From contig JAJFFG010000128.1 of NCBI GenBank assembly GCA_021776825.1, positions 353 to 64,352 of the forward strand: a stretch of DNA of 64,000 bases, in the 5' to 3' direction. Both the position numbers and the translations under genes were made by a program. Of this stretch, positions 10,704 to 30,067 are shown piece after piece. Source of the DNA: Planctomycetota bacterium. GTDB lineage: Bacteria; Planctomycetota; JAJSAM01; JAJVHW01. Under the pieces are notes generated by a model that saw only the letters and a program-made list of their open reading frames with translations, did no database searches and had not been told where the DNA came from. Position 1 is the stretch's first letter, and the number at the start of each line of letters is the position of its first letter.

Positions 10704-10705
10704 AC

Positions 10706-12475
10706 ATGCGCGCGTTCTCGGCCCTGATCGACAAGGAGTGGCGCGCCGCGCGCCCGATCGTCTTCGCGTCGATGGTGCTCGCCGTGCTCTTCACGCTCGG
10801 CGTCAACCACTGGGCATTCCACTGGCAAGAGCCGGACCTCACCGGACGCTGGATCGTCCCCGGCCTCACCGCGCTGTTCACGGCAGTGATCGCCGCCGAC
10901 CTCGTCTCTGCGGAGCGCGGCGCCGGCCGTGACCGAGCGTTCGCCACGCTGCCGGTGCGCGGACGCACTCTGTGGGCCGCCAAGGTCGCGTTTCTGGTCG
11001 CGGCCGTGACGACGTTCGCCTCGTTCGCCATCCTCTTGCAGCTCGTCGGCCACGCATTTCTCGCGCAGCCGCAGATCGCGCTCGAGGTGTTCCCCGCGGC
11101 CGCAGACGGCATCCCGTTCATCCCCGTGATCATCGGCGTGGGCGGCACCGTGCTGTTCTTCTCGACCCTCGTGCCGCGCGGGTTCGCGGCCGCCGTCGCC
11201 GGGATGGTCGTCGTCGCCGCCGCCGTGTGGGCCCCGTTCCAGCCCGACTGGACCGCCTACGACCTCCAGCCGTCGAAGGCGATCCTGCTCACGGCATCCG
11301 GCGTGCTCGGGACCCTGCTCGCGATCGGCTCGCTGAACGTGTTCGCCCGCGGACCGATCCACTCCGCCGGCTGGGTCCGGCGCTCGTGCCTAGCCCTGAT
11401 CATCCCCGTCGCGGTGCTCGGCGTCGCCGGCACGGCAACCGCCGCGACGCTCTCGTCATGGATGGCGATGCCGCTCGGCGAGACCCCGATCGCCGCGATG
11501 GTCGCGTCCCCGGACGGGAAGCTCTTGGCGGTCACGTTGGCTCGCCAGGGTCGGCGCCAGCGACACGTCTGGATCGTGCCCACCGATGGCGGCGCCGCCG
11601 TCGCGGTCGATGGACACCGCGTCCTGTTCGACACGGACGCGTGGCAGCCGGACGGCACGCTGCGGGTGTGGACGCACCAGGTGAGTGTCAATGGTCACCA
11701 CTATCAGGATCCGCGCCCGGTGCTGCGCCAAGACGTCAACCCGCGAACGGGCATTCCCACGCGCAGCCTCACCGCGAACAAGCACGTCGAGGAGACCAAC
11801 CGCCACGCCGGGCCGCGGAAGCTCATCTACGGTGTCCGCGACTGGACGGACCGGGGCGTCTGGGGCCAGCTGCTTCCGGATCGGACAACCCGCGAGTACC
11901 GGATCGTCGCCAAGCATCTGAATCTCGACGTGACGGTGCGGAGCGTGGCCCATGCGCGCATCTCGGCCCGACCGGGCTGCCTGCTGTTCACGCCGGAACT
12001 CGGAGTACTCCTGCACCGCGATCTGCGGACTGGAGAGGACCTGCTCCGCATCGAGGGCACCGACTACATCTCGGCGACCACGTCGGGTGACGGGCGGCTG
12101 CTCCACGTGTTCGAACAATTTCCCGACGGTCGCAAGGTCGTCCGCATCCTGGACGCCGACACGGGCGCCCGAGTCGCGGGACCGTTCGGGGCCGTGAAGT
12201 CCGGAGACGACCCGCGGTCGGGTGTCCGCCCTTATCAGCTCGGACCCGATGTCAGTGACTGGGTGCTGCTGTACGACACGGCCGGCGGTCGCGGCAAGCT
12301 GCTCAACGTGCGCACGAAGGCCGAGCGGCCGTGGACATGGACCTCAGGCGGGAACGGTTGGCCGCCACCGATCGCCTGCACCGTCCCCGGCCTCGGGACC
12401 GCGTTCTCCGTGGACGGCCGCATCGAGATCCGCGACGACCGTGGCGAGCTCGTCCGCACGCTGCTCACCGACTGA
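10706..12475 (+). CDS. Paralogous ABC-2-type permease-like 7-TM protein with C-terminal periplasmic beta-propeller-like domain
   Basis: AAGGAG-tagac-ATG. N-terminus MRAFSALIDKEWRAARPI is parallel to MRCFLTLLQKEWRDARAI of the preceding gene. Confidence 0.7.
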   Translation: MRAFSALIDKEWRAARPIVFASMVLAVLFTLGVNHWAFHWQEPDLTGRWIVPGLTALFTAVIAADLVSAERGAGRDRAFATLPVRGRTLWAAKVAFLVAAVTTFASFAILLQLVGHAFLAQPQIALEVFPAAADGIPFIPVIIGVGGTVLFFSTLVPRGFAAAVAGMVVVAAAVWAPFQPDWTAYDLQPSKAILLTASGVLGTLLAIGSLNVFARGPIHSAGWVRRSCLALIIPVAVLGVAGTATAATLSSWMAMPLGETPIAAMVASPDGKLLAVTLARQGRRQRHVWIVPTDGGAAVAVDGHRVLFDTDAWQPDGTLRVWTHQVSVNGHHYQDPRPVLRQDVNPRTGIPTRSLTANKHVEETNRHAGPRKLIYGVRDWTDRGVWGQLLPDRTTREYRIVAKHLNLDVTVRSVAHARISARPGCLLFTPELGVLLHRDLRTGEDLLRIEGTDYISATTSGDGRLLHVFEQFPDGRKVVRILDADTGARVAGPFGAVKSGDDPRSGVRPYQLGPDVSDWVLLYDTAGGRGKLLNVRTKAERPWTWTSGGNGWPPPIACTVPGLGTAFSVDGRIEIRDDRGELVRTLLTD

Positions 12476-12533
12476 CGTCGTCTCCTGGCGGTGTCTCTCT
12501 TGACCGGGAGCGCCGCGGTATCCTCGACCCGCG

Positions 12534-14171
12534 ATGCGTCGCGCGCTCCCCCTCGTCATCCTGCTGCTTCTCGCTGGGATCGGAGTCTGGACCCTGCTCG
12601 GCCCCGACGACACGGGGCCGCCGCCACGCGACGCGCCGGCGACGACCGAGCGCGCCGAGCCTCCCGAACGACGCCGAGCGCAGCCCGATCCGGAACCGCC
12701 GCCGGAGCCTCCCCCACCTCCGAGCGAGCCAGGTGAGTGGACGGTCCGCGTGCTGGGACGCGACGACGTCCCGGTCCCCGGCGCCACCGTCGTCGTCGGC
12801 GTGGCGCGGTCAGACCTGGACCATCGCAACGCGAACGACGAGCGAGTCACCACCGGGCTGACCGACTCCGACGGAGCGCTGTCGTTCGAGGCGCCGGCGG
12901 ACGAGCGTGAGTACGAGGCCGCGACCGGTCTCGACCCGCAGGTGCGGGCGCCCTTCGCCAGCGGAGTGGCGACGCTGCGTGTGCCGCGCGGCGTGCCGAT
13001 GTCGATCCGTGTCGTCGACTCCGAGACCGGAGAGATCGTCGCGACCGACATCGATCTCGTGCGGACATCGTTCATCGGCACCGTGCTGGCGCGTCAGACA
13101 CTCCCCCGACGTGGCTCGGAGACGTACGTCGGCGCCACCACGGCCGAGCCCGGTGGGGAGATCGCGCTGAAGCTGCGGCCAGACGCCCAGGCGGGATACG
13201 TCGTTGCGTCGAATACCTCCCACTTCGCGAACCTGAGCATTCGGACGCGCGCGCTGCGCGTCACCGTACCGATCCGGCCCCAGGCGAAGCTGCGCGTGCG
13301 CGTTCTCGACCACCTCGATCAGCCCGTCGAGGGTGCCGAGATCAAGAGGGTGCAGATCTCGGGGACGCCGCATCCGTACCGCGCCGCCGCAACGGACGCC
13401 CGCGGCGAGACGGGGCTCCGTGACGTCATGTTCATCCGCGGCAACCGCATTCGTGTGCGCGCCGCAAAGGGGAGGCTCTGGGCGTGGTCTGCTCCGTTCC
13501 GTCCCGCACACAACGACGAGTCGCTGCTCCTCACGGTCCGCCTTCCCGAGGTGGAGCCGGTCGACTTCGGCGGCCCGAGCAACGGCATGATCGGGATCGG
13601 GGGCGGAGCCGGCCCGGACGCACGCACGGTCGCCGAGAAGGACCTGACCTCCATCACGCTCCGCGTCGTCGCCGCCGACGGTACGCGCCCCGAGAACGTG
13701 CGCGTCTGGATCAAGGCCGAGGGCCAACGACAACTCCGCCACGCCCGCACGGACGAGAACGGTGACGCGGTGTTCGAGCGGCTGCGGCCCGGCACGTACC
13801 ACGCCGCATCGGCCGATCCGGGCATGGTGCCGGCGTCGGGCACCGTCACGACAGAGCCCGGCGAGCACGCGTCGCTGCTGCTTCGCGAGACCGCAGGCCG
13901 CATGCTGAGCGTGCTCGTGCTCGACAAGGACGGCAACCCCTTCTCCCACGCACGGGTCTACGTCGGTGTCGACGTCCACGGGCAGCGTATCGCCGTCCAG
14001 CGCGTCGTCGATGGCGTCCAGGACGTGCCGCTGCTCGCCGACGCAGACGGGCGGGTGATCCTGACGAACGCCCCAGAGGGCACGCTCGTCGTCAACGCCA
14101 GCTACGGAGCTCTGAACGAGGGCACAGAGTCGGACGCCCAGGACGTCGAGATCACGCTCGGCGGCGACTGA
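12534..14171 (+). CDS. Secreted/signal-anchored CarboxypepD_reg-like repeat protein, tandem paralog 1
   Basis: Anchor MRRALPLVILLLLAGIGVW. Pro-rich linker, then repeated beta-sandwich motifs. C-terminus VDGVQDVPLLADADGRVILTNAPEGTLVVNASYG is shared with paralogs 2 and 3. Confidence 0.7.
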   Translation: MRRALPLVILLLLAGIGVWTLLGPDDTGPPPRDAPATTERAEPPERRRAQPDPEPPPEPPPPPSEPGEWTVRVLGRDDVPVPGATVVVGVARSDLDHRNANDERVTTGLTDSDGALSFEAPADEREYEAATGLDPQVRAPFASGVATLRVPRGVPMSIRVVDSETGEIVATDIDLVRTSFIGTVLARQTLPRRGSETYVGATTAEPGGEIALKLRPDAQAGYVVASNTSHFANLSIRTRALRVTVPIRPQAKLRVRVLDHLDQPVEGAEIKRVQISGTPHPYRAAATDARGETGLRDVMFIRGNRIRVRAAKGRLWAWSAPFRPAHNDESLLLTVRLPEVEPVDFGGPSNGMIGIGGGAGPDARTVAEKDLTSITLRVVAADGTRPENVRVWIKAEGQRQLRHARTDENGDAVFERLRPGTYHAASADPGMVPASGTVTTEPGEHASLLLRETAGRMLSVLVLDKDGNPFSHARVYVGVDVHGQRIAVQRVVDGVQDVPLLADADGRVILTNAPEGTLVVNASYGALNEGTESDAQDVEITLGGD

Positions 14172-14200
14172 GCGGGCGCGACGGCGTACGCTCGGGACGG

Positions 14201-15850
14201 ATGCGACGCCTGACTCTCCCGCTGCTGCTTGTGCTCCTCGCGGTGATCGTGGCGCTCGTGATGTGCGAGCCGACAGCGGTGGAGCCGGTCGACGGGCCGG
14301 CCGAGCGAGCCAGCGAAGCCGAGATCGATCCGAGCCCGGACGAACTACCTGGGCGACGTGAGCGCGCTCGCGCGCCGCGGGTTGCCACAGCCAACCGCGC
14401 GCCGGCGGCCGTCGACGAGACCGCGACCGGACAGTGGCGCATCCGCGTGCTCGGCCGCGACGACGCCCCGATCGCTGGCGTACGGGTCGAGGTCACGGAG
14501 GAGACCCCCGAGGAACAGGGGGCGGTCCTCGAGATGCAGTCGACCCACCGGACGGACGCCAACGGAGTCACGTACGCCGACCCACTGCCCGCCGGCAGCA
14601 CGGGGACCGTGCGTTGCGACAACCTCGAGACCGCGGCGGTGCCGTACGAGCCGGAGACCGTGCTCCGGATCGAAGACGCGTTGCCCGTGACCGTCGCGCC
14701 CGTCGACGGCTGGTCGGGCGCGCCCCTCCCGGTCGACGTCCTGCTCCTCGGTTCGGCCACTCCGCTCGCCCTCGAACGCGATGGCGCGCTTCGACGCGTG
14801 GCGGCGTCGCCCGTGCGGCCCGGTCGCACGGGCCACCTGGCGTTCCGCATCGAAGCCGCACCCGAACGGTCCATCCCGTGGACCACCGTCGCATGGGGCG
14901 AGATCAGCGCACTCGCGGACGAGCTGCACGTGACGGCGGCCGTGCCACGGGAGGTGCAGCTCACCGTGCGTGTCACCGACTCGAGCGATCTACCGGTGGC
15001 GGGCGCGGAGCTCGCCGACGTGCACCGAGGCGGCTGGATCGACGACGTGATGGCCGGCGTGGCGAGCGACGCGGCCGGAGTCCTCGTCGTGCGTCGGACG
15101 CCGTTCTTTCGCGGGGACCGCATCGCCGTCGGTGTGTTCCTCGCCAATCGCTACGCGGTCTCGAACGAGATCGTGCTGCGCGAGGTCGATCAGGCGATCA
15201 GGCTCCACGCCCACGTCCCCGACGACGCGGACCCGAAGGTCTCCGATCACAACGAGGTCGACGTCGAGAGCCCCGACTACCGGAGGCCGTCGCGGTGGCT
15301 CGATGAGGCCGGAGCCGCATCACTGCACGTCCAGGTGAGGACGCGTCGGGGAGAGCGCGCGTGGATACCCGTCTCGGTCCTGACGGACGGCCAGCCGCGC
15401 GATCGCGGGTGGCGTGTCTGGACGGATGCTCACGGCGTCGCCGAGTTCCGTGGACTCCCGCCAGGACGCTGCAAGGTCATCGTGACCGACCCCGGGCTGA
15501 CGTGCTCGGTCACGGACGTCACGCTCGGCACCGGAGAAGCGCGGCGACTCGAGGTGCGCGATCCCGCGGGTCGACCACTCACCATCCGTGTCGTCGACCA
15601 CGATGGCGTCGCGCTCCCGTTTGCGGAGCTCCGCCTCTCCCGCGACGTTGCGGTGGGGTTCCCCAACGTGCGTGTCGCGCACGTGGTCGACGGGGTCCAA
15701 CACCTTCCCATCGTGACGGACCAGCATGGCGTGCTGCGCCTGACGGACGCTCCGCCGGGCGAGATCGAGATCATGGCTCGCTACGGGCATCGCTCTGCCA
15801 CCGTCGACGGGGCAGCGTCGGAGATCGTCGTGCGGCTGCCCGAGCGCTGA
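14201..15850 (+). CDS. CarboxypepD_reg-like repeat protein, tandem paralog 2
   Basis: MRRLTLPLLLVLLAVIVALVMCEP. C-terminus VDGVQHLPIVTDQHGVLRLTDAPPGEIEIMARYGHRS. Confidence 0.7.
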   Translation: MRRLTLPLLLVLLAVIVALVMCEPTAVEPVDGPAERASEAEIDPSPDELPGRRERARAPRVATANRAPAAVDETATGQWRIRVLGRDDAPIAGVRVEVTEETPEEQGAVLEMQSTHRTDANGVTYADPLPAGSTGTVRCDNLETAAVPYEPETVLRIEDALPVTVAPVDGWSGAPLPVDVLLLGSATPLALERDGALRRVAASPVRPGRTGHLAFRIEAAPERSIPWTTVAWGEISALADELHVTAAVPREVQLTVRVTDSSDLPVAGAELADVHRGGWIDDVMAGVASDAAGVLVVRRTPFFRGDRIAVGVFLANRYAVSNEIVLREVDQAIRLHAHVPDDADPKVSDHNEVDVESPDYRRPSRWLDEAGAASLHVQVRTRRGERAWIPVSVLTDGQPRDRGWRVWTDAHGVAEFRGLPPGRCKVIVTDPGLTCSVTDVTLGTGEARRLEVRDPAGRPLTIRVVDHDGVALPFAELRLSRDVAVGFPNVRVAHVVDGVQHLPIVTDQHGVLRLTDAPPGEIEIMARYGHRSATVDGAASEIVVRLPER

Positions 15851-20565: not shown

Positions 20566-22653
20566 ATGTCCACGATCACGTGTCCCGGATGTGGCGGGGT
20601 CTTCCCGCTCGAAGCCGTCGCCGGCTTCGCGAGCTTCCAGTGCAGCCAGTGCGGCACCAACGTGGCGGTACCGACCGCCCAGCCAGCAGCCCCGCCGGCG
20701 ACCCCAGCTCAGAGACCCACGCAGAGGCCAGCCCAGAAGCGAGGCTCGCCGAAGCGAGCCGCGCGACAGAGCGCACAGCGTCGGACGCGAGCGGCTCCGG
20801 AACACGAGGAGCCCCTGCCGGCCGCTGAGCCGGCTCGCCGTGGACGTCAGCGGCGCGGTGACGGCGACGCCGACGACCTGGCACCGAAGGACCGCTCGCC
20901 GCCGATCGGACTCTTCATCGGCATCGGCGTCGTGGTGCTCGCCGTCGTGGCGTTCGCGCTGACGCGCGGCGACGACATCCCCGAGCCGGTGCGCATCGGC
21001 GCCGACGGAGAGCCGATCACCGCGCCGGCCGTTGCGGACAACGGAGGTCAGCCGGCCGCCGACCCGAATACCGACCCCATCGCGTGGCGCGCCCTCCCAG
21101 CTCAGTCGCGCAAGGACCGCATCACACTGCTGCTCGCCCGCGCCGACACCGAAACAGAGAGCGTGGTTCGTCAGACCGCGGACTTCCTCCGCGAGCGCGG
21201 CGAGATCGCGGCGATCGAGGACCTCGCGCGGCGCTTCCTGAAGCGCGAGCCCACGAACCCCTGGGCCGCCCAGATCGCCGGGCGCCAGGAGGTGACCGCT
21301 CTGATCGACCAGACGCTCCGCAAGTGCGAGATGGCCGACGAAGTCGGCATCGCGTCGGTCATGCGTCTGCGGGAACTGAAGCGGTCCAAGGCGGACGAGA
21401 AGGGCAAGTGGTGGGCTGAGGGCGCGGACCTCGAGGAGGTCACGAAGCTCCTGGCAGAGGTCGAGGCGGAGGAGAAGGCGCTCGAGAACGACGGCGAGTA
21501 CGGCCGCGCTCGCTGGCGCGTCTACCAGGCCTCGACCGAGCCCATCAACCAGTACCCGTTCCTCGACGCGGCCGTCGGGCCCTACCTGATCTTCGTGCAG
21601 GTCGCGGCCGAGAAGGGCACGGCACTCGAGGACTGCGATCCCGAGGCGCGGGCCAACGCCGAGAAGGTGCTGGCGAAGAGCGTGAAGCTCTTCGAGACCT
21701 TCTACGAAGGCTGGATGACCGAGTTCGCCCCGCACTTCGGGTTCGAGCGCTACGACGAGAAGAACGTCGATCACTCGACCATCCTGAAGGCGATCATCTT
21801 CGCGTCGGAGAAGGACTACGCGACGTACAACGCATCGATCGGCTCCCGCCTCGCGAGCTCGGCGCGTGCGTACTACTCGAAGCGCGAGCCCCGTTTCATC
21901 TGCAGCTATGAGGGCGGCGACGAGGAGGACGAGGCGTACACGAACCACGTGCAGGCCCACGAAGCCACGCACCAGCTCGTGCACTTCTTCACGTGGGACA
22001 CGACGCGCAAGGCGATCGGCCGCGAACCCCGCTGGCTCGACGCGCTGCACCGCCCGCTGTGGAGCACCGAGGGATTCGCCGAGTTCTTCTCGGCCTACAC
22101 GGTCGAGGGCGACACGTACTCGTGGATGCAGCCGCTCGACAACCGCATGCAACACCTGTGGATCTTCGGCGGCATCCTCGAGAAGAAGGAGTGGAAGCGC
22201 TGGCCGCTCGATCAGATCCTGCGCATCCGCCACGGCGGCGAGCTCCAGGTGCAGGGCGCCGCGCGCGCGAAGCCTGCTGAGCAGGGGATGGCCGCCAACG
22301 TGATGGCGAACCTCTTCTATGCCGAGGCGTGGAGCTTCGTGCACTTCCTGTGGTACGCCGACGCTGGCGGGGCGCCGAAGTACCGCGATCGACTCATCGA
22401 GTACTTCAAGCTGGAGTTCGAACTCGACTACGGCCAGAGGGGCAAAGAGGGCGCGCCGACGCGCAGGGGGGCGCGCGTCATGACGGATAAGCACTTCAAG
22501 CGCGTGTTCGGGCTCATGGACTCGCCCGCGAAGATGCAGGCGCTCTACGAGGAGTGGAAGGCCTTCGAGAAGGCGCTCCTCGCGAAGCACAAGTCCCCGA
22601 AGTGGGACGAAGAGAAGAAGAAGATCTACAAGAACCTCGGCCTGAAGGAGTAG
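20566..22653 (+). CDS. Zinc-ribbon (CPxCG...CSQCG), single-TM, large exported domain with HExxH...EGFA gluzincin-like (DUF1570-like) motif
   Basis: MSTITCPGCGG...FQCSQCGT. TM PIGLFIGIGVVVLAVVAFAL. HVQAHEATHQLVHF ... STEGFAEFF. Confidence 0.7.
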   Translation: MSTITCPGCGGVFPLEAVAGFASFQCSQCGTNVAVPTAQPAAPPATPAQRPTQRPAQKRGSPKRAARQSAQRRTRAAPEHEEPLPAAEPARRGRQRRGDGDADDLAPKDRSPPIGLFIGIGVVVLAVVAFALTRGDDIPEPVRIGADGEPITAPAVADNGGQPAADPNTDPIAWRALPAQSRKDRITLLLARADTETESVVRQTADFLRERGEIAAIEDLARRFLKREPTNPWAAQIAGRQEVTALIDQTLRKCEMADEVGIASVMRLRELKRSKADEKGKWWAEGADLEEVTKLLAEVEAEEKALENDGEYGRARWRVYQASTEPINQYPFLDAAVGPYLIFVQVAAEKGTALEDCDPEARANAEKVLAKSVKLFETFYEGWMTEFAPHFGFERYDEKNVDHSTILKAIIFASEKDYATYNASIGSRLASSARAYYSKREPRFICSYEGGDEEDEAYTNHVQAHEATHQLVHFFTWDTTRKAIGREPRWLDALHRPLWSTEGFAEFFSAYTVEGDTYSWMQPLDNRMQHLWIFGGILEKKEWKRWPLDQILRIRHGGELQVQGAARAKPAEQGMAANVMANLFYAEAWSFVHFLWYADAGGAPKYRDRLIEYFKLEFELDYGQRGKEGAPTRRGARVMTDKHFKRVFGLMDSPAKMQALYEEWKAFEKALLAKHKSPKWDEEKKKIYKNLGLKE

Positions 22654-23201: not shown

Positions 23202-23310
23202 GCGTCACCTGGCCAGGCCGGGCGGGGCGGGGCGGGGCGGGCGGTCCTGGCCGAGGTGGTTCTGGGCCCGGCGGTCCCGGGCCGGATGGGCGTCTCTCGC
23301 CGCGCGACTC

Positions 23311-23652
23311 CTACGGCGCGGGGGCGAGGGCGGCGATCACGAGCAACCGCTCCGCTCCGGTGTTCCGGATGCCGTGCGGAGTCCCAGAGGGTGCCACCAG
23401 GAGCGTCCCGGCCGACATGGGCTCTTCGCGCCCCTCGAGCAGGAACGCCCCCTCGCCGCTGACCACGACGTAGAGCTTGTCCATGCCCTCGTGGGCGTGG
23501 AGCGCGTGTGACTGGCCCGGCTCGAACGCGTTGAGCCCGACCAGCAGACGCTCGCTCTTGAAGAGCGTGGCCTTGCCCATCTTGTCCGGCCGATAGACCG
23601 CGTGGTCCTCGGGTCGCCGTGGCGTCGGGTGCTCCATCTCGTTCTCCTCCAA
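23311..23652 (-). CDS. Cupin-domain protein
   Basis: HAHEGMDKLYVVVSGEG...GTPHGIRNTG cupin_2 motifs. Alternative start at 23637. Confidence 0.7.
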   Translation of the reverse strand: MEENEMEHPTPRRPEDHAVYRPDKMGKATLFKSERLLVGLNAFEPGQSHALHAHEGMDKLYVVVSGEGAFLLEGREEPMSAGTLLVAPSGTPHGIRNTGAERLLVIAALAPAP

Positions 23653-24062
23653 ACCGCTCGCCCGAGGCTACGCCGGGCCGGACCGCGGGCTCACACCAGA
23701 TCACGCCACCCCGCGCCAGCACCCCTACGCCGAGCCCGGCGGGCCCATCCCCCGCCTCCACCTCCTGTCGCCGCAGAATCCGCCCGGAGCCGGACCCCAA
23801 CCGTCCCGCGGCACGTGTCGTGCCGCGGCGCGTCGCACCGGTGAAGGCTCTCCAGCAGCGCGCGCGCACCGCCGGACTGCCGCCTGGTAAGAGAAGGACG
23901 CGTGAGATCGCCGAAGGTTACAGCGACCCCAGTCTCGTACCTTGGTCTCGTACCTTGGTCCCCTACCCGGGCCCGGTTCGGCGGGGTAGACTCCAGTTTC
24001 ACGTCGCACCGGCACCTCGCACCGGCAGCGTGAGGGAGACCGCCCGTCGCAGGAGGATGAGG

Positions 24063-25271
24063 ATGACCCGACCGCACCCCAATCGACTCCACCGTGCCGC
24101 AGGACTGCGTCGCCGCGACTTCCTCCGGACGTCCGCGATCGCCGGTGCTGGAGCCGTGGCCGGCGGGACGCTCCTCGGTCACGCCGCCGAAGCAGCGGCG
24201 GCGGGCAAGCGCGTCTACAAGACGAAGCACGTCATCCTGGTCGCCTTCGCTGGCGGTGTGCGCAGCCGCGAGTGCATCGGGACGATGTCGAACATCCCGA
24301 ACATGGCGGCCATCGCCGAGAGTGGCGTGGTCTGCCCCAACGTGCGGGCGGCGAACCTCGGTCACTACGGCGCCGCGCTCGCCATCTTCACCGGCTGCCC
24401 CGAGGCCCGCGGCATCCGCGAGAACGCCCGCGGCCCGCGGCCGACCATCTTCGAGTACCTGCGCAAGGATGCGGGACTGTCGGCGGACCAGGTGTGGCTC
24501 TCGACGACTGCCGGCGCCCAGACCCTGAATTACGCCTACAGCAACAACGACGACTACGGCGCGGCGTACGGCGCCAATCTCATCAGCACGGACGGCCTGT
24601 TCAACGCCGAGTTCCGGGATCTGATCGGCAAGTTCGGGCGCGCATCGCTGCCGAGCGACGAGGAGTCGAAGCGAGTCGAGCGGCTCATGAAGTCGCTCGA
24701 CGAGACCTGGGTGAAGAACGTCCGCGATCCGAAGTTCGCGAACAACCCCGAGACGCAGCTGCGCATCCAGCGCTACATCCTCGAGGAACTCCGCGGCGAC
24801 ACGGCGCGGATCACCGGACCGGGCGCCGGCGACGCCAAGTCGATCCGGGTCGCCCGCAATCTACTGCGGCTGTTCCGGCCGAAGCTGATCTCGATCGTCC
24901 TGCAGAACGCCGACACCGCCCACGGCAGCTACAACGGCTACGTCGACGTCATCCGCCGGAACGACCAGGAGCTCGGACTGCTCTGGCAGTCGGTCCAGGC
25001 CGATCCCGAGCTGCGGGACTCGACCTCGATCTTCATCCTGCCGGAGTTCGGGCGTGACGCGAACCTGAACGAGCGCAACGGCCTCGATCACGGGGACGGC
25101 TCCGAGGATCTCCGCAAGGTGTTCCTGATCGCCGCCGGACCGGACTTCAAGTCGGGCAAGACCATCGCCAAGCCGCTCGACTCGTTCGACGTCTGTCCGA
25201 CGATCGCCCAGATCTTCTCGACAGATCCCGACGAAGCGCGCGGCAAGGCCATGAAGGCCCTCTTCGTCTAG
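24063..25271 (+). CDS. Tat-exported DUF1501-family (sulfatase/alkaline-phosphatase-superfamily-like) protein
   Basis: AGGAGG N6 ATG. Twin-arginine motif RRDFLRTSAIAGAGAVA. C-terminal EFGRD...NGLDHGDG signature typical of DUF1501. Confidence 0.7.
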   Translation: MTRPHPNRLHRAAGLRRRDFLRTSAIAGAGAVAGGTLLGHAAEAAAAGKRVYKTKHVILVAFAGGVRSRECIGTMSNIPNMAAIAESGVVCPNVRAANLGHYGAALAIFTGCPEARGIRENARGPRPTIFEYLRKDAGLSADQVWLSTTAGAQTLNYAYSNNDDYGAAYGANLISTDGLFNAEFRDLIGKFGRASLPSDEESKRVERLMKSLDETWVKNVRDPKFANNPETQLRIQRYILEELRGDTARITGPGAGDAKSIRVARNLLRLFRPKLISIVLQNADTAHGSYNGYVDVIRRNDQELGLLWQSVQADPELRDSTSIFILPEFGRDANLNERNGLDHGDGSEDLRKVFLIAAGPDFKSGKTIAKPLDSFDVCPTIAQIFSTDPDEARGKAMKALFV

Positions 25272-25274
25272 CCC

Positions 25275-28208
25275 GTGCTGCGCGGCGGCCGCGTCGCCCT
25301 CGCCCTCGTGTTGGCCGCCGCGTTCGCGTGGGCGACCGCCGCAGTCGTGGCCCCTCGGGTCCTCGGGGGCGCCGAGGACGACATGCCGCGCGCGCCGGGC
25401 AACGGGACGTGCGGCACGTGTCACGAGGGACTCGAGGACATGCATCCGTCCTCGCCCGTGACGTGCGTGCAGTGCCACGGCGGCGACGCCACCCAAGGCG
25501 ACATGACGAAGGCGCACGTGACGCCCAGATCACGAGTCCCGGGTGACGAGCGCACGCTCGGCCAGTCATTCGATCCGGAGTATCTACGCTTCCGCGACCC
25601 GGGCGACCTGCGTGCAGCGCCGACGTCCTGCGGCCCGTGTCACCAGCGTGCCGTCTACGACGTGCGCCACTCGCTGCACGCGTCGACGGCCGGTCACCTC
25701 GGGGACGGCCTCTACGAGAACGGCGTCGTCGATCGCAAGGGCCCCGCATTCTCGGTGTTCCCGGTGCGCGACGAACTCCCGCCGGACCTCGAGCGCCCCG
25801 AGGGGGCCGTACCGTTCCTCAAGCAGATCCCCGGGTTCCGCACCGGCGGCGATCCGATGCGCGTCTCGACGCACTTCACAGATCTTCCCCGCAAGACGTG
25901 CATGCAGTGCCACCTCTGGTCTCGTGGCCGCGCCGTGCGCGGACGAGCCGGCATGGACGGTGACTACCGCGGCGAGGGCTGCTCAGCGTGTCACGTGCCG
26001 TACGCCGACGACGGCCTGTCGCTCTCCCGTGACCGCACCATCGACAAGTACGAGCCGGGTCACCCGAAGGAGCACCGAATGGTGCGCTTCCCCGAGACGA
26101 GCACGTGCACGCGCTGTCACTACGGGGATGCGTCGATCGGACTCTCGTTCCGCGGGCTCGCCCAACCCGTCCCCGGGATGCCGCAGTCACCCGACGCGCC
26201 TGGCCTGCATCGCAAGCGCCTGAACGGCGTCTACTACATCGACGATCCCGCCTCGACGCCCGCTGACGTCCATCACCAGCGAGGGATGCACTGCGTCGAC
26301 TGCCACACGCGCAACGACACGATGGGTGACGGGTTCCTCTACACGCGGATGGAGGATGCGACCGAAATCCAATGTCAATCGTGTCACGGTGATTGGACGG
26401 CGTACGCGACGGGACTCACGCGAAAGGGATCGCGTCTTCCGCACCTCGAGATGACCGATGGGAAGGTCTTCTTGAAGAGTCGCGTCACCGGCAAACGGCA
26501 TCGAGTCAAGCAGGCGCGCGACGTCGTTCGGCCCGGTAGCGACGACTTCAACGCGAGCGCCGCGATGGCGATGACCGGCGACCACGGCAATCTCGAGTGC
26601 TACACGTGCCACAGCGGCTGGAACCCGAACTTCTTCGGCTTCCACTTCGACCGAAACGAAGCATTCACTCAGCTCGACGTCCTGTCCGGCAATCGCACGA
26701 CCGGGCGCGTCACGACGCAGGAGAAGGTGTTCTCCACGTTCAAGCACTTCTACCTGGGCTGGAACAGTCACGGGCGGATCGCGCCCTACATGGTCGGCTT
26801 CTCGAGCATGGCGACGGTGCACGACGACGAGAACGAGTTGCTGCTCGATCAGGCTCTCCCGACGACTCGAGCGGGTCTGTCGGGGATGACGATGATCCAC
26901 CACCAGACGCACACGACGACGGCGCGGGCGCGCGAGTGCGTCGAGTGTCATCGCTCGCCGACGACCTACGGCCGCGGGAGCGTGAACTTCCGGCTGACGC
27001 GGGACTTCATGTACGCCGTCGGCAACCAGGGTGTCCGCGCCATCAGCCTGGACCGCAAGAACCCCGGGAACTCGGCGCTGCTCGCGTCGATCGCGATCGA
27101 GGAGGCGCGGACGGTTGCGATCGACCTCGACAAGACGACGGGCTACGCGAAGACGCTCTTCGTCGGCTCGCGCGTCGAAGGGCTGATCGCCGTGTCCTGC
27201 ACGATCCCCGGCTTCCCACGCGTGATCTCGCGGGAGAAGGACGCGTTCGATGACCCGCGGCGCATGCTGTTCGCCGATGGCACGCTCTACGTCGCCGAGG
27301 GGCTCGACGGCGTCCGCGTGTTCGATGTCGGCAATCCGTCGCGGCCGCGAGAGATCGCCCACGTGGCCGACTTCCCGGCGTTCGATCTACACCTCGACGG
27401 GACGACGCTCTACGTGGCCGCCGGCACGAAGGGGCTGATCGCACTCGACGTCCGTACCCCGAGCGAACCGACATCCGTCAGCGCCGGCTTCGACCTGAAC
27501 GGCGGGAGCACGACGACGGTCGACGTGCGGAACGTCTCGCTGCTGTTCCAATACAGCCGCCCGAATGCCGAGCAGACGGAGAAGCGGCGCACGCGGGCTC
27601 GCAACCTGGCCGTAGTCGGCACTCTGCGCCGCGGGCTGTGGCTCGTCGACCTCACGGAGCCCAAGCGACCGAGCGTGATCATGCAGGTCGGAAACGGCCT
27701 TGTGAGCGACGTCGCGATGGGCACGATCTACGAACTCGGCAGCGAGGGCGGCGCGATCCCGACGCAGGAACGCGACTTCGTGTTCGCCATCAATAACAAC
27801 GCGCTGGCGCTGGTCGACGTGACCGACCCGACCGCTCCACAGTTCAAGGGAGCGGTGGGCATCGCCGCCGGTGCACGCAGCCTGCGGGTAGCGCGGATCT
27901 ACAACCCTCCGTTCCTGCAGACCATGGTGATCGTCACCGGCAACGCCGGCGTACAGATCATCGACGTGACCCGCCCGACCAAGCCTGAGATCGTCGCGAC
28001 ACTCAACACCGCGATCGAGTCGTTCGACCTAGCGCTGGAGGAGTTCCCACTCGACCGCACCGTGGACTCCACCGGAGCGCCTATCATGGACGTCAGCCAC
28101 GCCGACGCACGGTGGCTGAGTCAGGCAGAGTTCCTCCGCGTGATGAGTGTCCCCGTGCTCGACTTCGCTCTGCCGCCACCGCGGCGAAAGACAGGAGACG
28201 ATCGATGA
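25275..28208 (+). CDS. Decaheme c-type cytochrome with a C-terminal LVIVD-repeat beta-propeller; signal-anchored
   Basis: GTG 4 nt after the DUF1501 stop. Ten CxxCH motifs: CGTCH, CVQCH, CGPCH, CMQCH, CSACH, CTRCH, CVDCH, CQSCH, CYTCH, CVECH. Five or more LVIVD-like blades: LYVAEGLDGVRVFDV, LYVAAGTKGLIALDV, LWLVDLT, LALVDVT, VQIIDVT. Confidence 0.85.
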   Translation: MLRGGRVALALVLAAAFAWATAAVVAPRVLGGAEDDMPRAPGNGTCGTCHEGLEDMHPSSPVTCVQCHGGDATQGDMTKAHVTPRSRVPGDERTLGQSFDPEYLRFRDPGDLRAAPTSCGPCHQRAVYDVRHSLHASTAGHLGDGLYENGVVDRKGPAFSVFPVRDELPPDLERPEGAVPFLKQIPGFRTGGDPMRVSTHFTDLPRKTCMQCHLWSRGRAVRGRAGMDGDYRGEGCSACHVPYADDGLSLSRDRTIDKYEPGHPKEHRMVRFPETSTCTRCHYGDASIGLSFRGLAQPVPGMPQSPDAPGLHRKRLNGVYYIDDPASTPADVHHQRGMHCVDCHTRNDTMGDGFLYTRMEDATEIQCQSCHGDWTAYATGLTRKGSRLPHLEMTDGKVFLKSRVTGKRHRVKQARDVVRPGSDDFNASAAMAMTGDHGNLECYTCHSGWNPNFFGFHFDRNEAFTQLDVLSGNRTTGRVTTQEKVFSTFKHFYLGWNSHGRIAPYMVGFSSMATVHDDENELLLDQALPTTRAGLSGMTMIHHQTHTTTARARECVECHRSPTTYGRGSVNFRLTRDFMYAVGNQGVRAISLDRKNPGNSALLASIAIEEARTVAIDLDKTTGYAKTLFVGSRVEGLIAVSCTIPGFPRVISREKDAFDDPRRMLFADGTLYVAEGLDGVRVFDVGNPSRPREIAHVADFPAFDLHLDGTTLYVAAGTKGLIALDVRTPSEPTSVSAGFDLNGGSTTTVDVRNVSLLFQYSRPNAEQTEKRRTRARNLAVVGTLRRGLWLVDLTEPKRPSVIMQVGNGLVSDVAMGTIYELGSEGGAIPTQERDFVFAINNNALALVDVTDPTAPQFKGAVGIAAGARSLRVARIYNPPFLQTMVIVTGNAGVQIIDVTRPTKPEIVATLNTAIESFDLALEEFPLDRTVDSTGAPIMDVSHADARWLSQAEFLRVMSVPVLDFALPPPRRKTGDDR

Positions 28209-28981
28209 TGCGCACCTCTCTCGTAGCCCTTGCAGTGCTGCTCATGGCCAGCGGGACCGGCCTCGCCGCCTCCGAGTACGAGAAGCAGCTCACCGAGCGC
28301 TTTGCCAAAGTCGACAAGAACCGCGACGGCGCGCTGCGTGGCGCGGAGCTCCCGGAGAAGTGGGTCGATCGGTTCGATCGCAACGGCGACGAGAAGATCA
28401 CGAAGCGCGAGTTCATGGTGGTCATGACGCGACCCGAGGGTCTGCGTCGACTGTTCGTGCTGCGCGATACACGTGCTCGTGCCCGCAACTCATTGAACTT
28501 CGATCAGGACAAGAATGGCGTCGTCTCCGAGGAGGAGTACCCCGGCGACCGCAACGTGTTTCGCAAGGCGGACCGCGATCGCGATGGCTCACTCGAATGG
28601 AAGGAGCTCCTGCGACTCGCGGACTCTGAGCTGGACGACATCCGCAAGCGAATGAAGAACCCGACACGTTACGAGATGATGAACCTGTTCGATTTGAACT
28701 ACGACCGCAAGGTCACGTCGAATGAGTACGACGGCCCGACCAAGGCATTCAAGAAGTACGACACGAACAACGACGGCACGGTCGGCTACTACGAGGTCTA
28801 CCCCGATCGCATGGAACGGGAGATGCCGAAGCCGAAGCCCGAGGATCTCAACGTGCTGAAGGCGATGGATCAGAACGACGACGGTCGTGTTTCGCGCAAG
28901 GAGTGGAAGGGAACCGCGTCGGCATGGCGGCGTCTCGACCGCAACGACGACGGCTGGATCACGCTCGCCGACGCGCGCTGA
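28205..28981 (+). CDS. Secreted calcium-binding protein with 8 EF-hand loops
   Basis: ATGATGA overlaps the cytochrome stop. Signal MMRTSLVALAVLLMASGTGLAA. Loops DKNRDGAL, DRNGDEKI, DQDKNGVV, DRDRDGSL, DLNYDRKV, DTNNDGTV, DQNDDGRV, DRNDDGWI. Confidence 0.85.
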   Translation: MMRTSLVALAVLLMASGTGLAASEYEKQLTERFAKVDKNRDGALRGAELPEKWVDRFDRNGDEKITKREFMVVMTRPEGLRRLFVLRDTRARARNSLNFDQDKNGVVSEEEYPGDRNVFRKADRDRDGSLEWKELLRLADSELDDIRKRMKNPTRYEMMNLFDLNYDRKVTSNEYDGPTKAFKKYDTNNDGTVGYYEVYPDRMEREMPKPKPEDLNVLKAMDQNDDGRVSRKEWKGTASAWRRLDRNDDGWITLADAR

Positions 28982-29164
28982 CCCCCGCAGTCCTGACCCC
29001 AGAGCACCGGAGCGGGCATGGACGTAGCGCTCCCGCATGGGCCCACCCCCGCCACCGCCGCCTGAACGTCCCCATGGACTCCGCGTCAGGCCCATAGGTC
29101 CGCGGCGGGCCCATGGAACCGCGTCAGGTCGGAGCAGCTCGTCGAGCGCGTGCGCAGCGCGCGG

Positions 29165-30067
29165 CTACTTGAAGCCGAGCAGCGCCCGGAAGACGTGCCC
29201 CGCGATCTGCGGGTTCTCCTTCAGCCGCCGGGTGCTGTAGCCGTACCAGTTCGCGCCGAACGGGACGTAGATGCGCACGCGGTGCCCCTTGGCGATCAAC
29301 TCATCGCGCATCCACTCGCGCACTCCGAGCAGCATCTGGAACTCGACGCGCGACGGATCGGGTGAGAGCTCCTCGATCAACGCCAGGGCGTCCGCGACGA
29401 GCACCTCGTCATGCGTGGCGATGCCCACCGCGCTCTCGCCTTCGAGCAGCGCCCGCAGACTCTGCCGATAGCTGTCGCGGATCTCTTCGCGGTCCTTGTA
29501 GGCGATCGTCTCTGACTCGTTGTAGATGCCCTTGCATAGGCGGACAGGGATGCCCTCCGCAGCCAGCGCGATCGCGTCGTCGAGGGTGCGAAACAGATAG
29601 GCCTGGAGCACGGCACCCACGGGATGTCCCTCGCCGCGGAGGCGGCGGACGAGTGCCAGCGTGGAGTCCGTGACGGGCGAATCCTCCATGTCCACTCGGA
29701 CGAATCCGTCGTCGAGGGGCGCGGCACGGACCACCAGGTCGCGCACGAGACTGGTGCACACCTCCTCGTCGAGCAGGAGCCCGAGGGCGGTCAGCTTCAC
29801 GGAGATGTTGCACTTCAGGGACTCGCGCTCGATCGCGTCGAGCATCGCCGAGTAGTCCCGCGCGGTGGCCTTGGCCTCGGAGAGGTCCTCGATGAACTCC
29901 CCGAGCACGTCCACCGTGCACGTCGCGCCCTTCGCGTTCAGGGCGCGGATCGTGCGCACGGCGTCGTCGACGGTCTCACCGGCGATGTAGCGCTGCGCGA
30001 CCCGACCGATCACGAAACGGGGCGTGATCGGCAGTGAGGCAGCAAGAAAGCGATCGAAGACGGACAC
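29165..30067 (-). CDS. Proline dehydrogenase (monofunctional PRODH)
   Basis: GGAGGG N5 GTG start. C-terminal RIYVPFGANWYGYSTRRLKENP signature. Alternative upstream ATG at 30157. Confidence 0.8.
   Translation of the reverse strand: MSVFDRFLAASLPITPRFVIGRVAQRYIAGETVDDAVRTIRALNAKGATCTVDVLGEFIEDLSEAKATARDYSAMLDAIERESLKCNISVKLTALGLLLDEEVCTSLVRDLVVRAAPLDDGFVRVDMEDSPVTDSTLALVRRLRGEGHPVGAVLQAYLFRTLDDAIALAAEGIPVRLCKGIYNESETIAYKDREEIRDSYRQSLRALLEGESAVGIATHDEVLVADALALIEELSPDPSRVEFQMLLGVREWMRDELIAKGHRVRIYVPFGANWYGYSTRRLKENPQIAGHVFRALLGFK

What the first reader, a model, noticed from the sequence alone, without database searches (positions are those of the whole stretch)
24063..28981. Coupled triad: Tat-exported DUF1501 protein, decaheme cytochrome with LVIVD propeller, and secreted 8x EF-hand protein
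Three genes are joined without intergenic space: GTG 4 nt after the first stop, and an ATGATGA overlap into the third. (1) The first product has a twin-arginine signal and the C-terminal EFGRD...NGLDHG signature of DUF1501. In Planctomycetes and Verrucomicrobia this family is almost always partnered with single-heme DUF1549/DUF1553 (PSCyt) proteins. (2) Here its partner is a 977-aa protein with ten canonical CxxCH motifs followed by an LVIVD-repeat beta-propeller. (3) The third product is a signal-peptide protein made of eight EF-hand loops. The motifs are read directly from the translation. The pairing of DUF1501 with a true multihaem cytochrome plus a Ca-binding module is not an arrangement I know to be described. 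It suggests an extracytoplasmic redox/hydrolytic machine, possibly Ca-regulated. The leader at 23933-24030 also carries two perfect 13-bp tandem duplications.
Basis: partly seen in the sequence, partly recalled or inferred. Interest (0 to 1): 0.78.

Follow-up and report, generated by a model that had tools for sequence, protein, structure and literature searches.

The report
Conserved planctomycete cytochrome–DUF1501–EF-hand operon
The three tightly packed genes are real and form a gene module conserved in at least 164 uncultured Planctomycetota species, where it is annotated only as hypothetical; it combines a Tat-exported phosphatase-fold protein, a ten-haem cytochrome with a propeller domain and a calcium-binding protein, and its chemistry is unknown.

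Summary
g1 (24063-25271) is a Tat-signal protein with an alkaline-phosphatase-superfamily fold. It is DUF1501-like, but this copy scores below Pfam's threshold. g2 (25275-28208) has ten conserved CxxCH motifs in an ExtM-like haem domain, followed by a confidently modelled 7-bladed LVIVD propeller. g3 (28205-28981) has a signal peptide and eight canonical EF-hand loops. The junctions are a 3-nt gap and an ATGA overlap.

The triad is not peculiar to this genome. Among 80 species-level loci, all from uncultured Planctomycetota or unclassified MAGs, g1 lies directly upstream of g2 in 73. An EF-hand module follows g2 in 75 of 77 assessable loci, and in 22 of these it is fused in frame to the cytochrome. 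This fusion indicates that the two proteins physically associate. Most relatives also carry a fourth gene, DUF1549/DUF1800-like, upstream of g1. The window and its five closest GTDB loci lack it.

I read the triad as a multihaem, Ca-binding variant of the known but uncharacterised DUF1501–cytochrome c modules of PVC bacteria. It is probably a periplasmic redox complex. The substrate and chemistry are unknown. The leader repeats are not conserved and are probably slippage. Interest is moderate.

The parts
23932..23960 (+). 13-nt tandem duplication GTCTCGTACCTTG x2.2 in the region upstream of g1
   Evidence: TRF reports 100% matches. The repeat finder family D2 confirms it. The region is not conserved upstream of g1 in relatives. 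No Rfam match was found.
24000..24027 (+). Second 13-nt tandem repeat, imperfect (12 of 13)
   Evidence: TRF reports 93% matches. The repeat finder family D3 reports 92%.
24051..24056 (+). Shine-Dalgarno-like AGGAGG, 6 nt before the g1 ATG
   Evidence: Read directly from the sequence.
24063..25271 (+). g1: Tat-exported, DUF1501-like protein of the alkaline-phosphatase superfamily (402 aa). The RR is at residues 17-18. Invariant candidate metal or active-site residues are H101, D284, H287, E328, D342, H343 and D345.
   Evidence: Family models: Pfam DUF1501 18.1 bits (below cut-off 27) and TIGR01409 19.6 bits (above 16.7). All 21 family members hit PF07394. Invariant columns come from alignment A2. 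The PDB profile search gives sulfatase and NPP. The AF2 model has pLDDT 70.5 with a confident core. Foldseek top hits are sulfatases, NPP and PafA.
25275..25400 (+). g2 N-terminal hydrophobic signal peptide or signal anchor (residues 1 to about 30)
   Evidence: Translation. The model shows a helix at residues 4-29. This segment is poorly conserved.
25401..26999 (+). g2 decahaem domain (residues about 43-575). It carries ten CxxCH motifs. A very conserved non-haem block (residues about 449-546, NFFGFHFDRNE...) lies between haems 9 and 10.
   Evidence: All ten motifs are conserved in relatives. NCBIfam ExtM scores 191.6 bits over residues 43-374 (cut-off 800), and ExtN/ExtO hit weakly over residues 436-564. 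Conservation is 0.75-0.81, against 0.54 for the propeller. Stand-alone homologues of 600-700 aa exist.
27000..28208 (+). g2 C-terminal 7-bladed LVIVD beta-propeller (residues about 577-925) plus a short tail
28205..28981 (+). g3: Sec-signal protein with eight canonical EF-hand loops in four closely spaced pairs. Its start overlaps the g2 stop (ATGA).
   Evidence: EF-hand_1, _6 and _7 score 86-91 bits. The module is a separate downstream gene in 53 relatives and is fused to g2 in 22.

Best explanation
The three genes form one operon that encodes a three-part complex outside the cytoplasm, in the periplasm. It is a variant of the DUF1501–cytochrome c modules that are typical of Planctomycetota and Verrucomicrobia.

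Shown:
- g1 is exported folded by the Tat pathway and has an alkaline-phosphatase-superfamily fold.
- g2 is a Sec-type exported protein whose N-terminal half carries ten c-type haem sites, enough for an electron wire. Its C-terminal half is a 7-bladed propeller.
- g3 is a Sec-exported protein with eight Ca-type EF hands.
- The order g1, g2, EF-hand and the tight junctions are conserved across many species.
- In about a quarter of species the EF-hand module is part of the cytochrome polypeptide, attached after the propeller.

Inferred:
- The EF-hand subunit binds Ca2+ and sits on the propeller end of the cytochrome as a stoichiometric structural or docking subunit.
- g1 is the catalytic subunit. 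It has a His-rich metal site, and H101 sits where sulfatases and phosphatases carry their Cys, Ser or Thr nucleophile.
- The decahaem domain carries electrons between g1 (or a substrate held by the propeller) and the general periplasmic electron carriers.

The substrate is unknown.
For: Synteny.
- g1 is adjacent to g2 in 73 of 80 species-level loci. An EF-hand module is present in 75 of 77 assessable loci.
- The reciprocal test agrees: 64 of 71 assessable g1-anchored metagenome loci have g2 directly downstream.
- Gaps of -4 to about +13 nt recur between the genes.

Fusion. Proteins of 1235-1368 aa in the order haem domain, LVIVD, EF-hand occur in 22 loci.

Compartment. The twin arginines R17 and R18 are invariant, and TIGR01409 is above its cut-off. 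g2 and g3 have hydrophobic N-termini.

g1 fold. The AF2 core is confident and Foldseek returns sulfatases, NPP and PafA. H101 lies at the N-terminus of helix 100-110, just after strand 88-95. It is invariant and is also kept in a 25%-identical Acaryochloris homologue.

Haems. All ten CxxCH motifs are conserved. At least 13 further conserved His residues lie in the haem domain, which is consistent with bis-His electron-transfer haems.

Precedent. Kamneva et al. 2012 (PMC3542564) described DUF1501 modules with PSCyt partners, including a haem c + WD40 propeller protein, and proposed a role in electron transport.
Against: - No chemistry is demonstrated for any DUF1501 protein.
- g1 scores below the Pfam DUF1501 threshold.
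- The assignment of H101 to the nucleophile position rests partly on a non-significant stretch of a profile alignment (4.1 bits) and on model topology.
- The haem domain was modelled poorly (pLDDT below 50), so haem packing and any catalytic haem cannot be judged.
- No quinol dehydrogenase, porin or other electron entry or exit component is conserved next to the module. The redox partners are therefore unknown.
- The propeller is less conserved than the haem domain.
- No expression data are available.
Confidence: 0.45

Rival explanations
1. The cytochrome is the functional core. g2 would be a periplasmic or cell-surface electron conduit, for example to or from metals, humics or a partner complex, like Geobacter ExtM-type cytochromes. 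The propeller and EF-hand module would serve as Ca-dependent surface or matrix anchoring. g1 would be an accessory protein, not the catalyst.
For: - The haem domain is homologous to the N-terminal part of the Geobacter 12-haem ExtM (NF040943, 191.6 bits; ExtM is described in PMC5877670).
- Stand-alone haem-domain homologues of 600-700 aa exist.
- The haem domain is the best-conserved part of g2.
- The propeller resembles S-layer YVTN propellers and hits the 'choice-of-anchor B' model weakly.
- The EF-hand region gives a weak dockerin hit.
Against: - No porin or outer-membrane component and no quinol oxidase is conserved nearby.
- The g1 subfamily is almost never found without g2. This argues that g1 is integral to the module rather than accessory.
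- ExtM itself is uncharacterised.
Confidence: 0.2
2. The module is a hydrolytic nutrient-scavenging system. g1 would be a sulfatase- or phosphoesterase-like hydrolase acting on a polymer or ester. The propeller would bind the substrate, and Ca2+/EF-hands would stabilise the assembly. The haems would play a secondary role, such as sensing or maturation.
For: - g1 has the alkaline-phosphatase-superfamily fold, and its closest solved relatives are sulfatases and NPPs.
- A related Acaryochloris protein is annotated 'sulfatase-like hydrolase/transferase'.
- PSCyt/DUF1501 genes often neighbour sulfatase and carbohydrate-binding genes in Verrucomicrobia (PMC5615132).
Against: - No Cys, Ser or Thr sits at the inferred nucleophile position; it is an invariant His.
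- Ten strictly conserved haems are an expensive feature for a non-redox role.
- No sulfatase-maturating enzyme and no transporter is conserved in the loci.
Confidence: 0.2
3. The EF-hand protein is a lanmodulin-like lanthanide or other metal chaperone. It would deliver a metal to the propeller or to g1.
For: - The NCBIfam lanmodulin model is hit at 49.7 bits.
- Adjacent EF loops are unusually close: 21-23 residues between loop starts within a pair. From memory, lanmodulin also has short spacing.
Against: - The score is far below the 135-bit cut-off.
- None of the eight loops has the Pro at position 2 that I recall as typical of lanmodulin. The loop residues are canonical for Ca2+.
Confidence: 0.05
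4. The adjacency is incidental and the three proteins do not work together.
For: No direct evidence for it. No experimental data on co-expression exist.
Against: - The gene order is conserved down to 43-49% identity in 80 species.
- Overlapping or near-touching junctions recur.
- In-frame g2–EF-hand fusions occur in 22 loci.
- The flanking genes differ between clades while the module stays intact.
Confidence: 0.03

Closest known systems
DUF1501–PSCyt (planctomycete-specific cytochrome c) gene modules of the PVC superphylum (Kamneva et al. 2012, PMC3542564; Studholme-type PSCyt/PSD domains)
   Same: - A Tat-signal DUF1501-type protein is encoded next to exported c-type cytochrome proteins.
- One published four-gene variant includes a haem c + WD40 propeller protein.
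- Most relatives of this locus also carry a DUF1549 (PSCyt2)-like gene directly upstream.
- The function is unknown in both cases.
   Different: - The cytochrome here has ten haems in an ExtM-like domain, not a single PSCyt1 haem. Its propeller is the LVIVD type.
- A multi-EF-hand module is an obligatory third part.
- The g1 subfamily lies at the edge of PF07394; this copy is below the cut-off.
- The window and its five closest GTDB loci lack the DUF1549-like gene.
Geobacter sulfurreducens ExtM (GSU2935), the 12-haem cytochrome of the extHIJKLMNOPQS cluster (PMC5877670)
   Same: Residues 43-374 of g2 (eight haem motifs) match the N-terminal half of the ExtM model, E 2e-56. Both proteins are exported multihaem cytochromes of unproven function.
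   Different: - The score is 191.6 against an 800-bit equivalog cut-off, so g2 is not an ExtM orthologue.
- g2 has ten haems, not twelve, and adds a propeller.
- No ExtN-S partners (Rieske protein, cytochrome b) or porin lie nearby.
Alkaline-phosphatase superfamily hydrolases (S1 sulfatases, NPP/ENPP phosphodiesterases, PafA)
   Same: g1 shares the core fold (Foldseek E 1e-10 to 1e-8). It also shares the C-terminal metal-binding strand motif, where g1 PEFGRD aligns with sulfatase GDHGR.
   Different: - Sequence identity is 10-17%.
- The N-terminal Asp-Asp metal ligands are replaced by GG.
- The nucleophile position carries His101 instead of Cys (formylglycine), Ser or Thr. This is an inference.
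Haem c + beta-propeller redox enzymes (cytochrome cd1 nitrite reductase, hydrazine synthase, quinohaemoprotein dehydrogenases). This is an analogy drawn from general knowledge.
   Different: - There is no sequence-level relationship.
- The best structural neighbours are lactonase- or YVTN-type propellers without cofactors.
- No cofactor-binding motif was identified in the propeller.
Bacterial secreted multi-EF-hand proteins (XopAW family, lanmodulin)
   Same: The protein has a signal peptide and tandem EF-hand pairs. It gives sub-threshold hits to NF041410 (54.5 bits) and NF053806 (49.7 bits).
   Different: - Both scores are well below their cut-offs (120 and 135).
- g3 has eight loops.
- The loop chemistry is canonical for Ca2+.
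- It is genetically coupled, and sometimes fused, to a cytochrome.

Membership tests
DUF1501 (Pfam PF07394) | Whole-protein score at or above Pfam's gathering cut-off (27 bits) | tested here: not met
   The window protein scores 18.1 bits (E 0.0016), over residues 282-346 only. All 21 aligned subfamily members hit PF07394 at E<=0.01, the best at 9.9e-9. The subfamily is therefore a divergent relative of DUF1501.
DUF1501 (Pfam PF07394) | Twin-arginine (Tat) signal peptide, common in the family | tested here: met
   TIGR01409 scores 19.6 bits against a 16.7 cut-off. R17 and R18 are invariant in A2.
DUF1501 (Pfam PF07394) | Neighbouring PSCyt/DUF1549/DUF1553-type partner gene | tested here: not met
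   tblastn with five such partners found none in the 64-kb window. A DUF1549/DUF1800/DUF4214-like gene is adjacent in 51 of 80 related loci.
Alkaline-phosphatase superfamily | Core alpha/beta fold shared with sulfatases and NPPs | tested here: met
   AF2 gives a confident core. Foldseek against the PDB gives probability 1.00 for sulfatases, NPPs and PafA. The PDB profile search gives E 5e-6 to an S1_8 sulfatase.
Alkaline-phosphatase superfamily | Cys, Ser or Thr nucleophile at the N-terminus of the active-site helix | tested here: inconclusive
   The invariant His101 occupies that position by register with the sulfatase CxxxR...TG motif and by model topology. The aligned stretch is not significant on its own.
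Multihaem cytochrome c | Several CxxCH motifs in an exported protein, conserved in homologues | tested here: met
   g2 has ten CxxCH motifs, all conserved in 22 aligned homologues and in every full-length locus copy. Cytochrome_C7 and Cytochrom_c3_2 score above their cut-offs. Haem attachment itself cannot be tested here.
ExtM (NCBIfam NF040943, equivalog) | Score of at least 800 bits over the full 599-position model | tested here: not met
   The score is 191.6 bits and covers model positions 19-302 only.
LVIVD-repeat beta-propeller (PF08309) | Score above the cut-off and a propeller fold | tested here: met
EF-hand Ca-binding proteins | Canonical 12-residue loops (D-x-[DN]-x-[DN]-G...E) in pairs, with Pfam scores above the cut-offs | tested here: met
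   g3 has eight loops. EF-hand_1 scores 91.3 bits, EF-hand_7 89.4 and EF-hand_6 86.3. Metal binding itself cannot be tested here.
Lanmodulin (NF053806) | Score of at least 135 bits, and a Pro at loop position 2 | tested here: not met
   The score is 49.7 bits. Position 2 of the eight loops is K, R, Q, R, L, T, Q, R.
Porin–cytochrome extracellular electron-transfer conduits (Mtr/Pcc type) | A gene for an outer-membrane beta-barrel next to the multihaem cytochrome | tested here: not met
   Clustering of all ORFs across 81 loci found no conserved neighbour beyond the 3-4 module genes. The conserved flanks examined are housekeeping genes.

The most novel reading that the evidence does not exclude
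The module would be a new type of periplasmic oxidoreductase. Its catalytic subunit would be an alkaline-phosphatase-fold metalloprotein with a His in place of the usual nucleophile, wired by a decahaem cytochrome and assembled with a Ca-binding subunit. If so, it would give the first mechanistic handle on the very large DUF1501/PSCyt gene families of Planctomycetota and Verrucomicrobia, marking them as redox enzymes rather than hydrolases.
Probability: 0.15. Interest if true: 0.8.

Novelty: new variant of a known kind. Interest (0 to 1): 0.5.

Why it matters
DUF1501 and its cytochrome partners are among the most expanded gene families in Planctomycetota and Verrucomicrobia. The papers held here, from 2012 and 2017, still list their function as unknown (PMC3542564, PMC5615132).

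This variant pairs a DUF1501-like protein obligatorily with a true ten-haem electron wire. It is the clearest genomic hint so far that the family works in electron transfer. The g2–EF-hand fusions also give a concrete, testable prediction of subunit contacts.

The module is compact (3-4 genes), self-contained and widespread, so it is a practical target for heterologous expression. The limitation is that every carrier found so far is an uncultured MAG.

Tried and rejected
Leader region.
- An Rfam scan at E<=1 found nothing.
- The sigma-70 promoter scan found no site in 23300-29300, and terminator-like sites were no more frequent than in shuffles.
- blastn of the 410-nt upstream region against 82 loci found no conserved element. 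Only L007 and L004 gave matches, each about 30 nt. I therefore treat the 13-nt duplications as probable slippage, not a regulatory element.

Structure.
- The g2 haem domain was modelled at pLDDT below 50. No conclusion could be drawn about haem packing or a catalytic haem. Both fold searches for g2 effectively report only the propeller.
- The afdb50 fold library was unavailable. I could not look for cultured-organism homologues that way.

PDB profile search for g2. It gave only marginal matches (E about 7e-4) to octahaem nitrite reductase haem motifs. I rejected these as evidence of NrfA/ONR-type catalysis.

Canonical DUF1501.
- A search for canonical DUF1501 genes (EFGR...G[RTK]DH) in the fetched loci and the window found none. 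A direct profile-to-profile comparison with canonical DUF1501 was therefore not done.
- tblastn of g1 against plasmids found a 25%-identical Tat-signal homologue in Acaryochloris marina pREB3. Its partner there is a multi-pass membrane protein without haem motifs, so that locus is not the same module.

Other.
- The upstream 695-aa ORF (20566-22653) is unrelated to the fourth-gene family.
- Literature searches for DUF1501 function, LVIVD + cytochrome, DUF1501 + DUF1800 and multihaem + propeller + EF-hand found no description of this arrangement.
Full report
**1. What is in the window**

The region holds three same-strand ORFs with GC3 of 0.83-0.90 in a window of 69% G+C.
- g1 (24063-25271, 402 aa) starts 6 nt after an AGGAGG. 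It opens with a twin-arginine motif (RRRDFL).
- g2 (25275-28208, 977 aa, GTG start) begins 3 nt after the g1 stop.
- g3 (28205-28981, 258 aa) starts inside the g2 stop codon (ATGA).

g2 has ten CxxCH motifs and only one other cysteine. g3 has a signal peptide and eight canonical EF-hand loops in four close pairs.

Family models confirm most labels: LVIVD 37.1 bits, Cytochrome_C7 42.4, Cytochrom_c3_2 42.5, EF-hand_7 89.4 and TIGR01409 Tat signal 19.6, all above their cut-offs. DUF1501 is the exception. It scores 18.1 bits against a cut-off of 27, and only over residues 282-346.

In the upstream region, one 13-nt tandem duplication is perfect and the other matches 12 of 13.

**2. The triad is a conserved module, not a local oddity**

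Protein searches found 894 relatives of g1 and 609 of g2. Almost all are unnamed or 'hypothetical', and those with an organism name come from Planctomycetota MAGs.

A scan of one genome per GTDB species with a g2 profile found 164 loci. The 80 best are all uncultured Planctomycetota or unclassified MAGs. In these 80 loci:
- g1 lies directly upstream of g2 in 73. In two more it lies within 4 kb, two are cut by contig ends, and three lack it.
- An EF-hand module follows g2 in 75 of 77 assessable loci. It is a separate gene in 53 and is fused in frame to the C-terminus of the cytochrome in 22.
- Every full-length g2 homologue keeps ten CxxCH motifs.
- Junctions of -4 to about +13 nt recur.

The reciprocal test agrees. 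Of 71 assessable metagenome loci anchored on g1, 64 have g2 directly downstream and three more have it within 3.6 kb.

One fused protein (P0236, 1305 aa) shows the order haem domain, LVIVD, EF-hands. Its tail aligns with g3. Such fusions are the classic indication that two proteins associate physically.

**3. A fourth gene in most relatives**

Clustering all ORFs of the loci revealed one more conserved gene, directly upstream of g1 in 51 of 80 loci.
- Its product gives weak to moderate Pfam hits to PSCyt2/DUF1549, DUF1800 and DUF4214.
- Most versions are 340-400 aa and lack haem motifs. A few long versions add an N-terminal CxxCH and a PKD domain.
- It is absent from the window and from the five closest GTDB loci, L003-L007. 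It also does not appear among the cluster members for L002.

The multihaem protein is therefore an addition to the usual DUF1549-type partner of DUF1501 proteins, not a substitute. The lineage of the window has lost or moved that partner.

Beyond these three or four genes, nothing is conserved. Flanks differ between clades: a thioesterase, a methyltransferase, a HAD hydrolase, proline dehydrogenase, a carbamoyltransferase and an acyl-CoA dehydrogenase lie around the window. Sigma-70, lipoyl synthase and 2-oxoacid dehydrogenase genes lie in the fused clade. No porin, quinol dehydrogenase or cytochrome-maturation gene travels with the module.

**4. The parts**

*g1.*
- All 21 aligned members of its subfamily hit PF07394 at E<=0.01, the best at 1e-8. 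Some also hit Sulfatase or Phosphodiest.
- A profile of the subfamily finds S1 sulfatases and NPPs in the PDB.
- The AF2 model has a confident core. Foldseek places it in the alkaline-phosphatase superfamily.
- Invariant polar residues include H101, D284, H287, E328, D342, H343 and D345.
- By register with the sulfatase C-x-x-x-R...T-G motif, and by its place at the N-terminus of helix 100-110 after strand 88-95, H101 sits where the superfamily normally has its Cys, Ser or Thr nucleophile. This is an inference, because that stretch of the alignment is not significant on its own.
- The same His, the PT(I/L)FEYLRK motif and the GRD motif are kept in a 25%-identical Tat-signal homologue on an Acaryochloris marina plasmid. 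Its partner there is a membrane protein, not a cytochrome.

*g2.*
- Residues 43-374 match the N-terminal half of the NCBIfam model for Geobacter ExtM at 191.6 bits. This shows homology but is far below the 800-bit equivalog cut-off. Residues 436-564 match ExtN/ExtO weakly.
- ExtM is a 12-haem cytochrome of unproven function in the extHIJKLMNOPQS cluster (PMC5877670).
- An exhaustive profile search shows only about ten 50%-identity clusters with the full architecture. It also finds many stand-alone haem-domain proteins of 600-700 aa and very many LVIVD-repeat proteins.
- Within the family the haem domain is better conserved (0.75-0.81 in the haem 4-8 and haem 9-10 blocks) than the propeller (0.54). 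A non-haem block around residues 453-487 is among the most conserved stretches.
- At least 13 conserved His residues outside the CxxCH motifs lie in the haem domain. That is enough for bis-His ligation of all ten haems, so I see no sign of a catalytic haem, although I cannot exclude one.

*g3.* The loops are canonical for Ca2+. The lanmodulin and XopAW models are hit only far below their cut-offs, and none of the loops has a Pro at position 2.

**5. How it most likely works**

Shown:
- One operon-like unit encodes three exported proteins, one through Tat and two through Sec-type signals.
- They co-occur obligatorily across a phylum-level range of species.
- Two of the three are a single polypeptide in a quarter of species.

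Inferred:
- The proteins form a periplasmic complex.
- The EF-hand subunit binds Ca2+ and attaches at the propeller end of the cytochrome.
- The ten haems move electrons.
- The Tat-exported g1, folded and probably metal-loaded in the cytoplasm, is the catalytic subunit.

I give this about 0.45. The 'they work together' part is much firmer (about 0.8-0.9) than the 'g1 is a redox catalyst' part. The rivals are:
- a cytochrome-centred electron conduit with g1 as accessory (0.2);
- a hydrolytic scavenging system with a non-catalytic cytochrome (0.2);
- a lanmodulin-like metal chaperone role for g3 (0.05);
- incidental adjacency (0.03, effectively excluded).

**6. Comparison with what is known**

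The nearest described thing is the set of DUF1501–PSCyt modules of the PVC superphylum. Kamneva et al. 2012 noted the Tat signals, the cytochrome partners and a four-gene variant containing a haem c + WD40 propeller protein. They proposed an unknown electron-transport role (PMC3542564). He et al. 2017 still state that nothing is known of the function (PMC5615132). I found no later paper on DUF1501 function and none describing a DUF1501 + multihaem/LVIVD + EF-hand arrangement.

The present module is therefore a new variant of a known, uncharacterised kind. It has a divergent DUF1501-like subunit, a ten-haem ExtM-like domain in place of a single PSCyt haem, an LVIVD propeller and an obligatory EF-hand module. 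It is not an ExtM orthologue, not a porin–cytochrome conduit and not a lanmodulin system; the membership table gives the tests.

**7. The leader**

The upstream region has no Rfam match and no consensus promoter. It is not conserved in relatives. The closest relative, L002, has only 189 nt of unrelated sequence between g1 and a divergent HAD gene. A perfect tandem duplication of period 10-20 occurs twice in the window, against about 0.3 per shuffle. I regard the repeats as replication slippage without demonstrated function.

**8. Verdict**

The lineage is Planctomycetota by similarity (69-84% identity) and shared flanking genes with named MAGs.

Interest is moderate (0.5). The module is a solid, widespread and undescribed variant that bears on an old open question, the function of DUF1501/PSCyt. 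However, it is not rare, its chemistry remains unknown, and all carriers found so far are uncultured.

Noticed in passing
window 20566-22653 (+): A 695-aa ORF with an N-terminal double CxxC zinc-ribbon-like motif, a hydrophobic stretch and a C-terminal HEATH (HExxH) motif. The only Pfam hit is a weak one to Peptidase_M9 (E 0.006). Homologues also lie upstream of the module in L004 (57% identity) and L006. It may be a membrane-anchored metalloprotease of an undescribed family.
   Followed up: partly
window 23806-23828: A perfect 10-nt inverted repeat, CCGCGGCACG-tgt-CGTGCCGCGG. It lies in the divergent intergenic region between the cupin gene (23311-23652, minus strand) and g1. It could be an operator or a hairpin.
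   Followed up: no
window 42673-42702: The only other perfect tandem duplication of period 10-20 in the window: 15 nt, CCGGGCCGGGTCTCC x2. It lies within or next to the ORF 42631-43839 (minus strand).
   Followed up: no
window 8988-15850 (+): Four consecutive same-strand ORFs of similar size (571, 589, 545 and 549 aa). At least the last two carry CarboxypepD_reg-type Pfam marks, mostly weak or faint, in the matching Logan contig. This looks like a tandem paralogue array.
   Followed up: no
L009-L082, directly upstream of the g1 homologue (e.g. L036 5592-6659, L009 1864-3954): A fourth conserved module gene, DUF1549 (PSCyt2)/DUF1800/DUF4214-like. It is usually 340-400 aa and lacks haem motifs; long forms add an N-terminal CxxCH and a PKD domain. 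It is absent from the window and from its closest relatives.
   Followed up: yes
L163 6887-9252 (Acaryochloris marina MBIC11017 plasmid pREB3): A cultured cyanobacterium carries a 25%-identical, Tat-signal homologue of g1, annotated 'sulfatase-like hydrolase/transferase'. It keeps the His at the putative nucleophile position. It is followed by a multi-pass membrane protein of unknown family and preceded divergently by DUF1326/DUF2182 genes. This may be an experimentally tractable relative of g1.
   Followed up: partly
g2 residues 449-546 (window about 26619-26912): A non-haem block between haems 9 and 10 (W..FFGFHFDRNE.F.QLD..G.RT.GR..T.EKVF...GLSG.T..HQ.H). It is among the most conserved stretches of the whole protein and weakly matches the ExtN/ExtO NCBIfam models. 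Its role is unknown.
   Followed up: partly
L093, L094, L127: In three g1-anchored metagenome loci, 1.3-3.6 kb lie between g1 and g2 instead of a few nt, which suggests an inserted gene. I did not examine the content.
   Followed up: no
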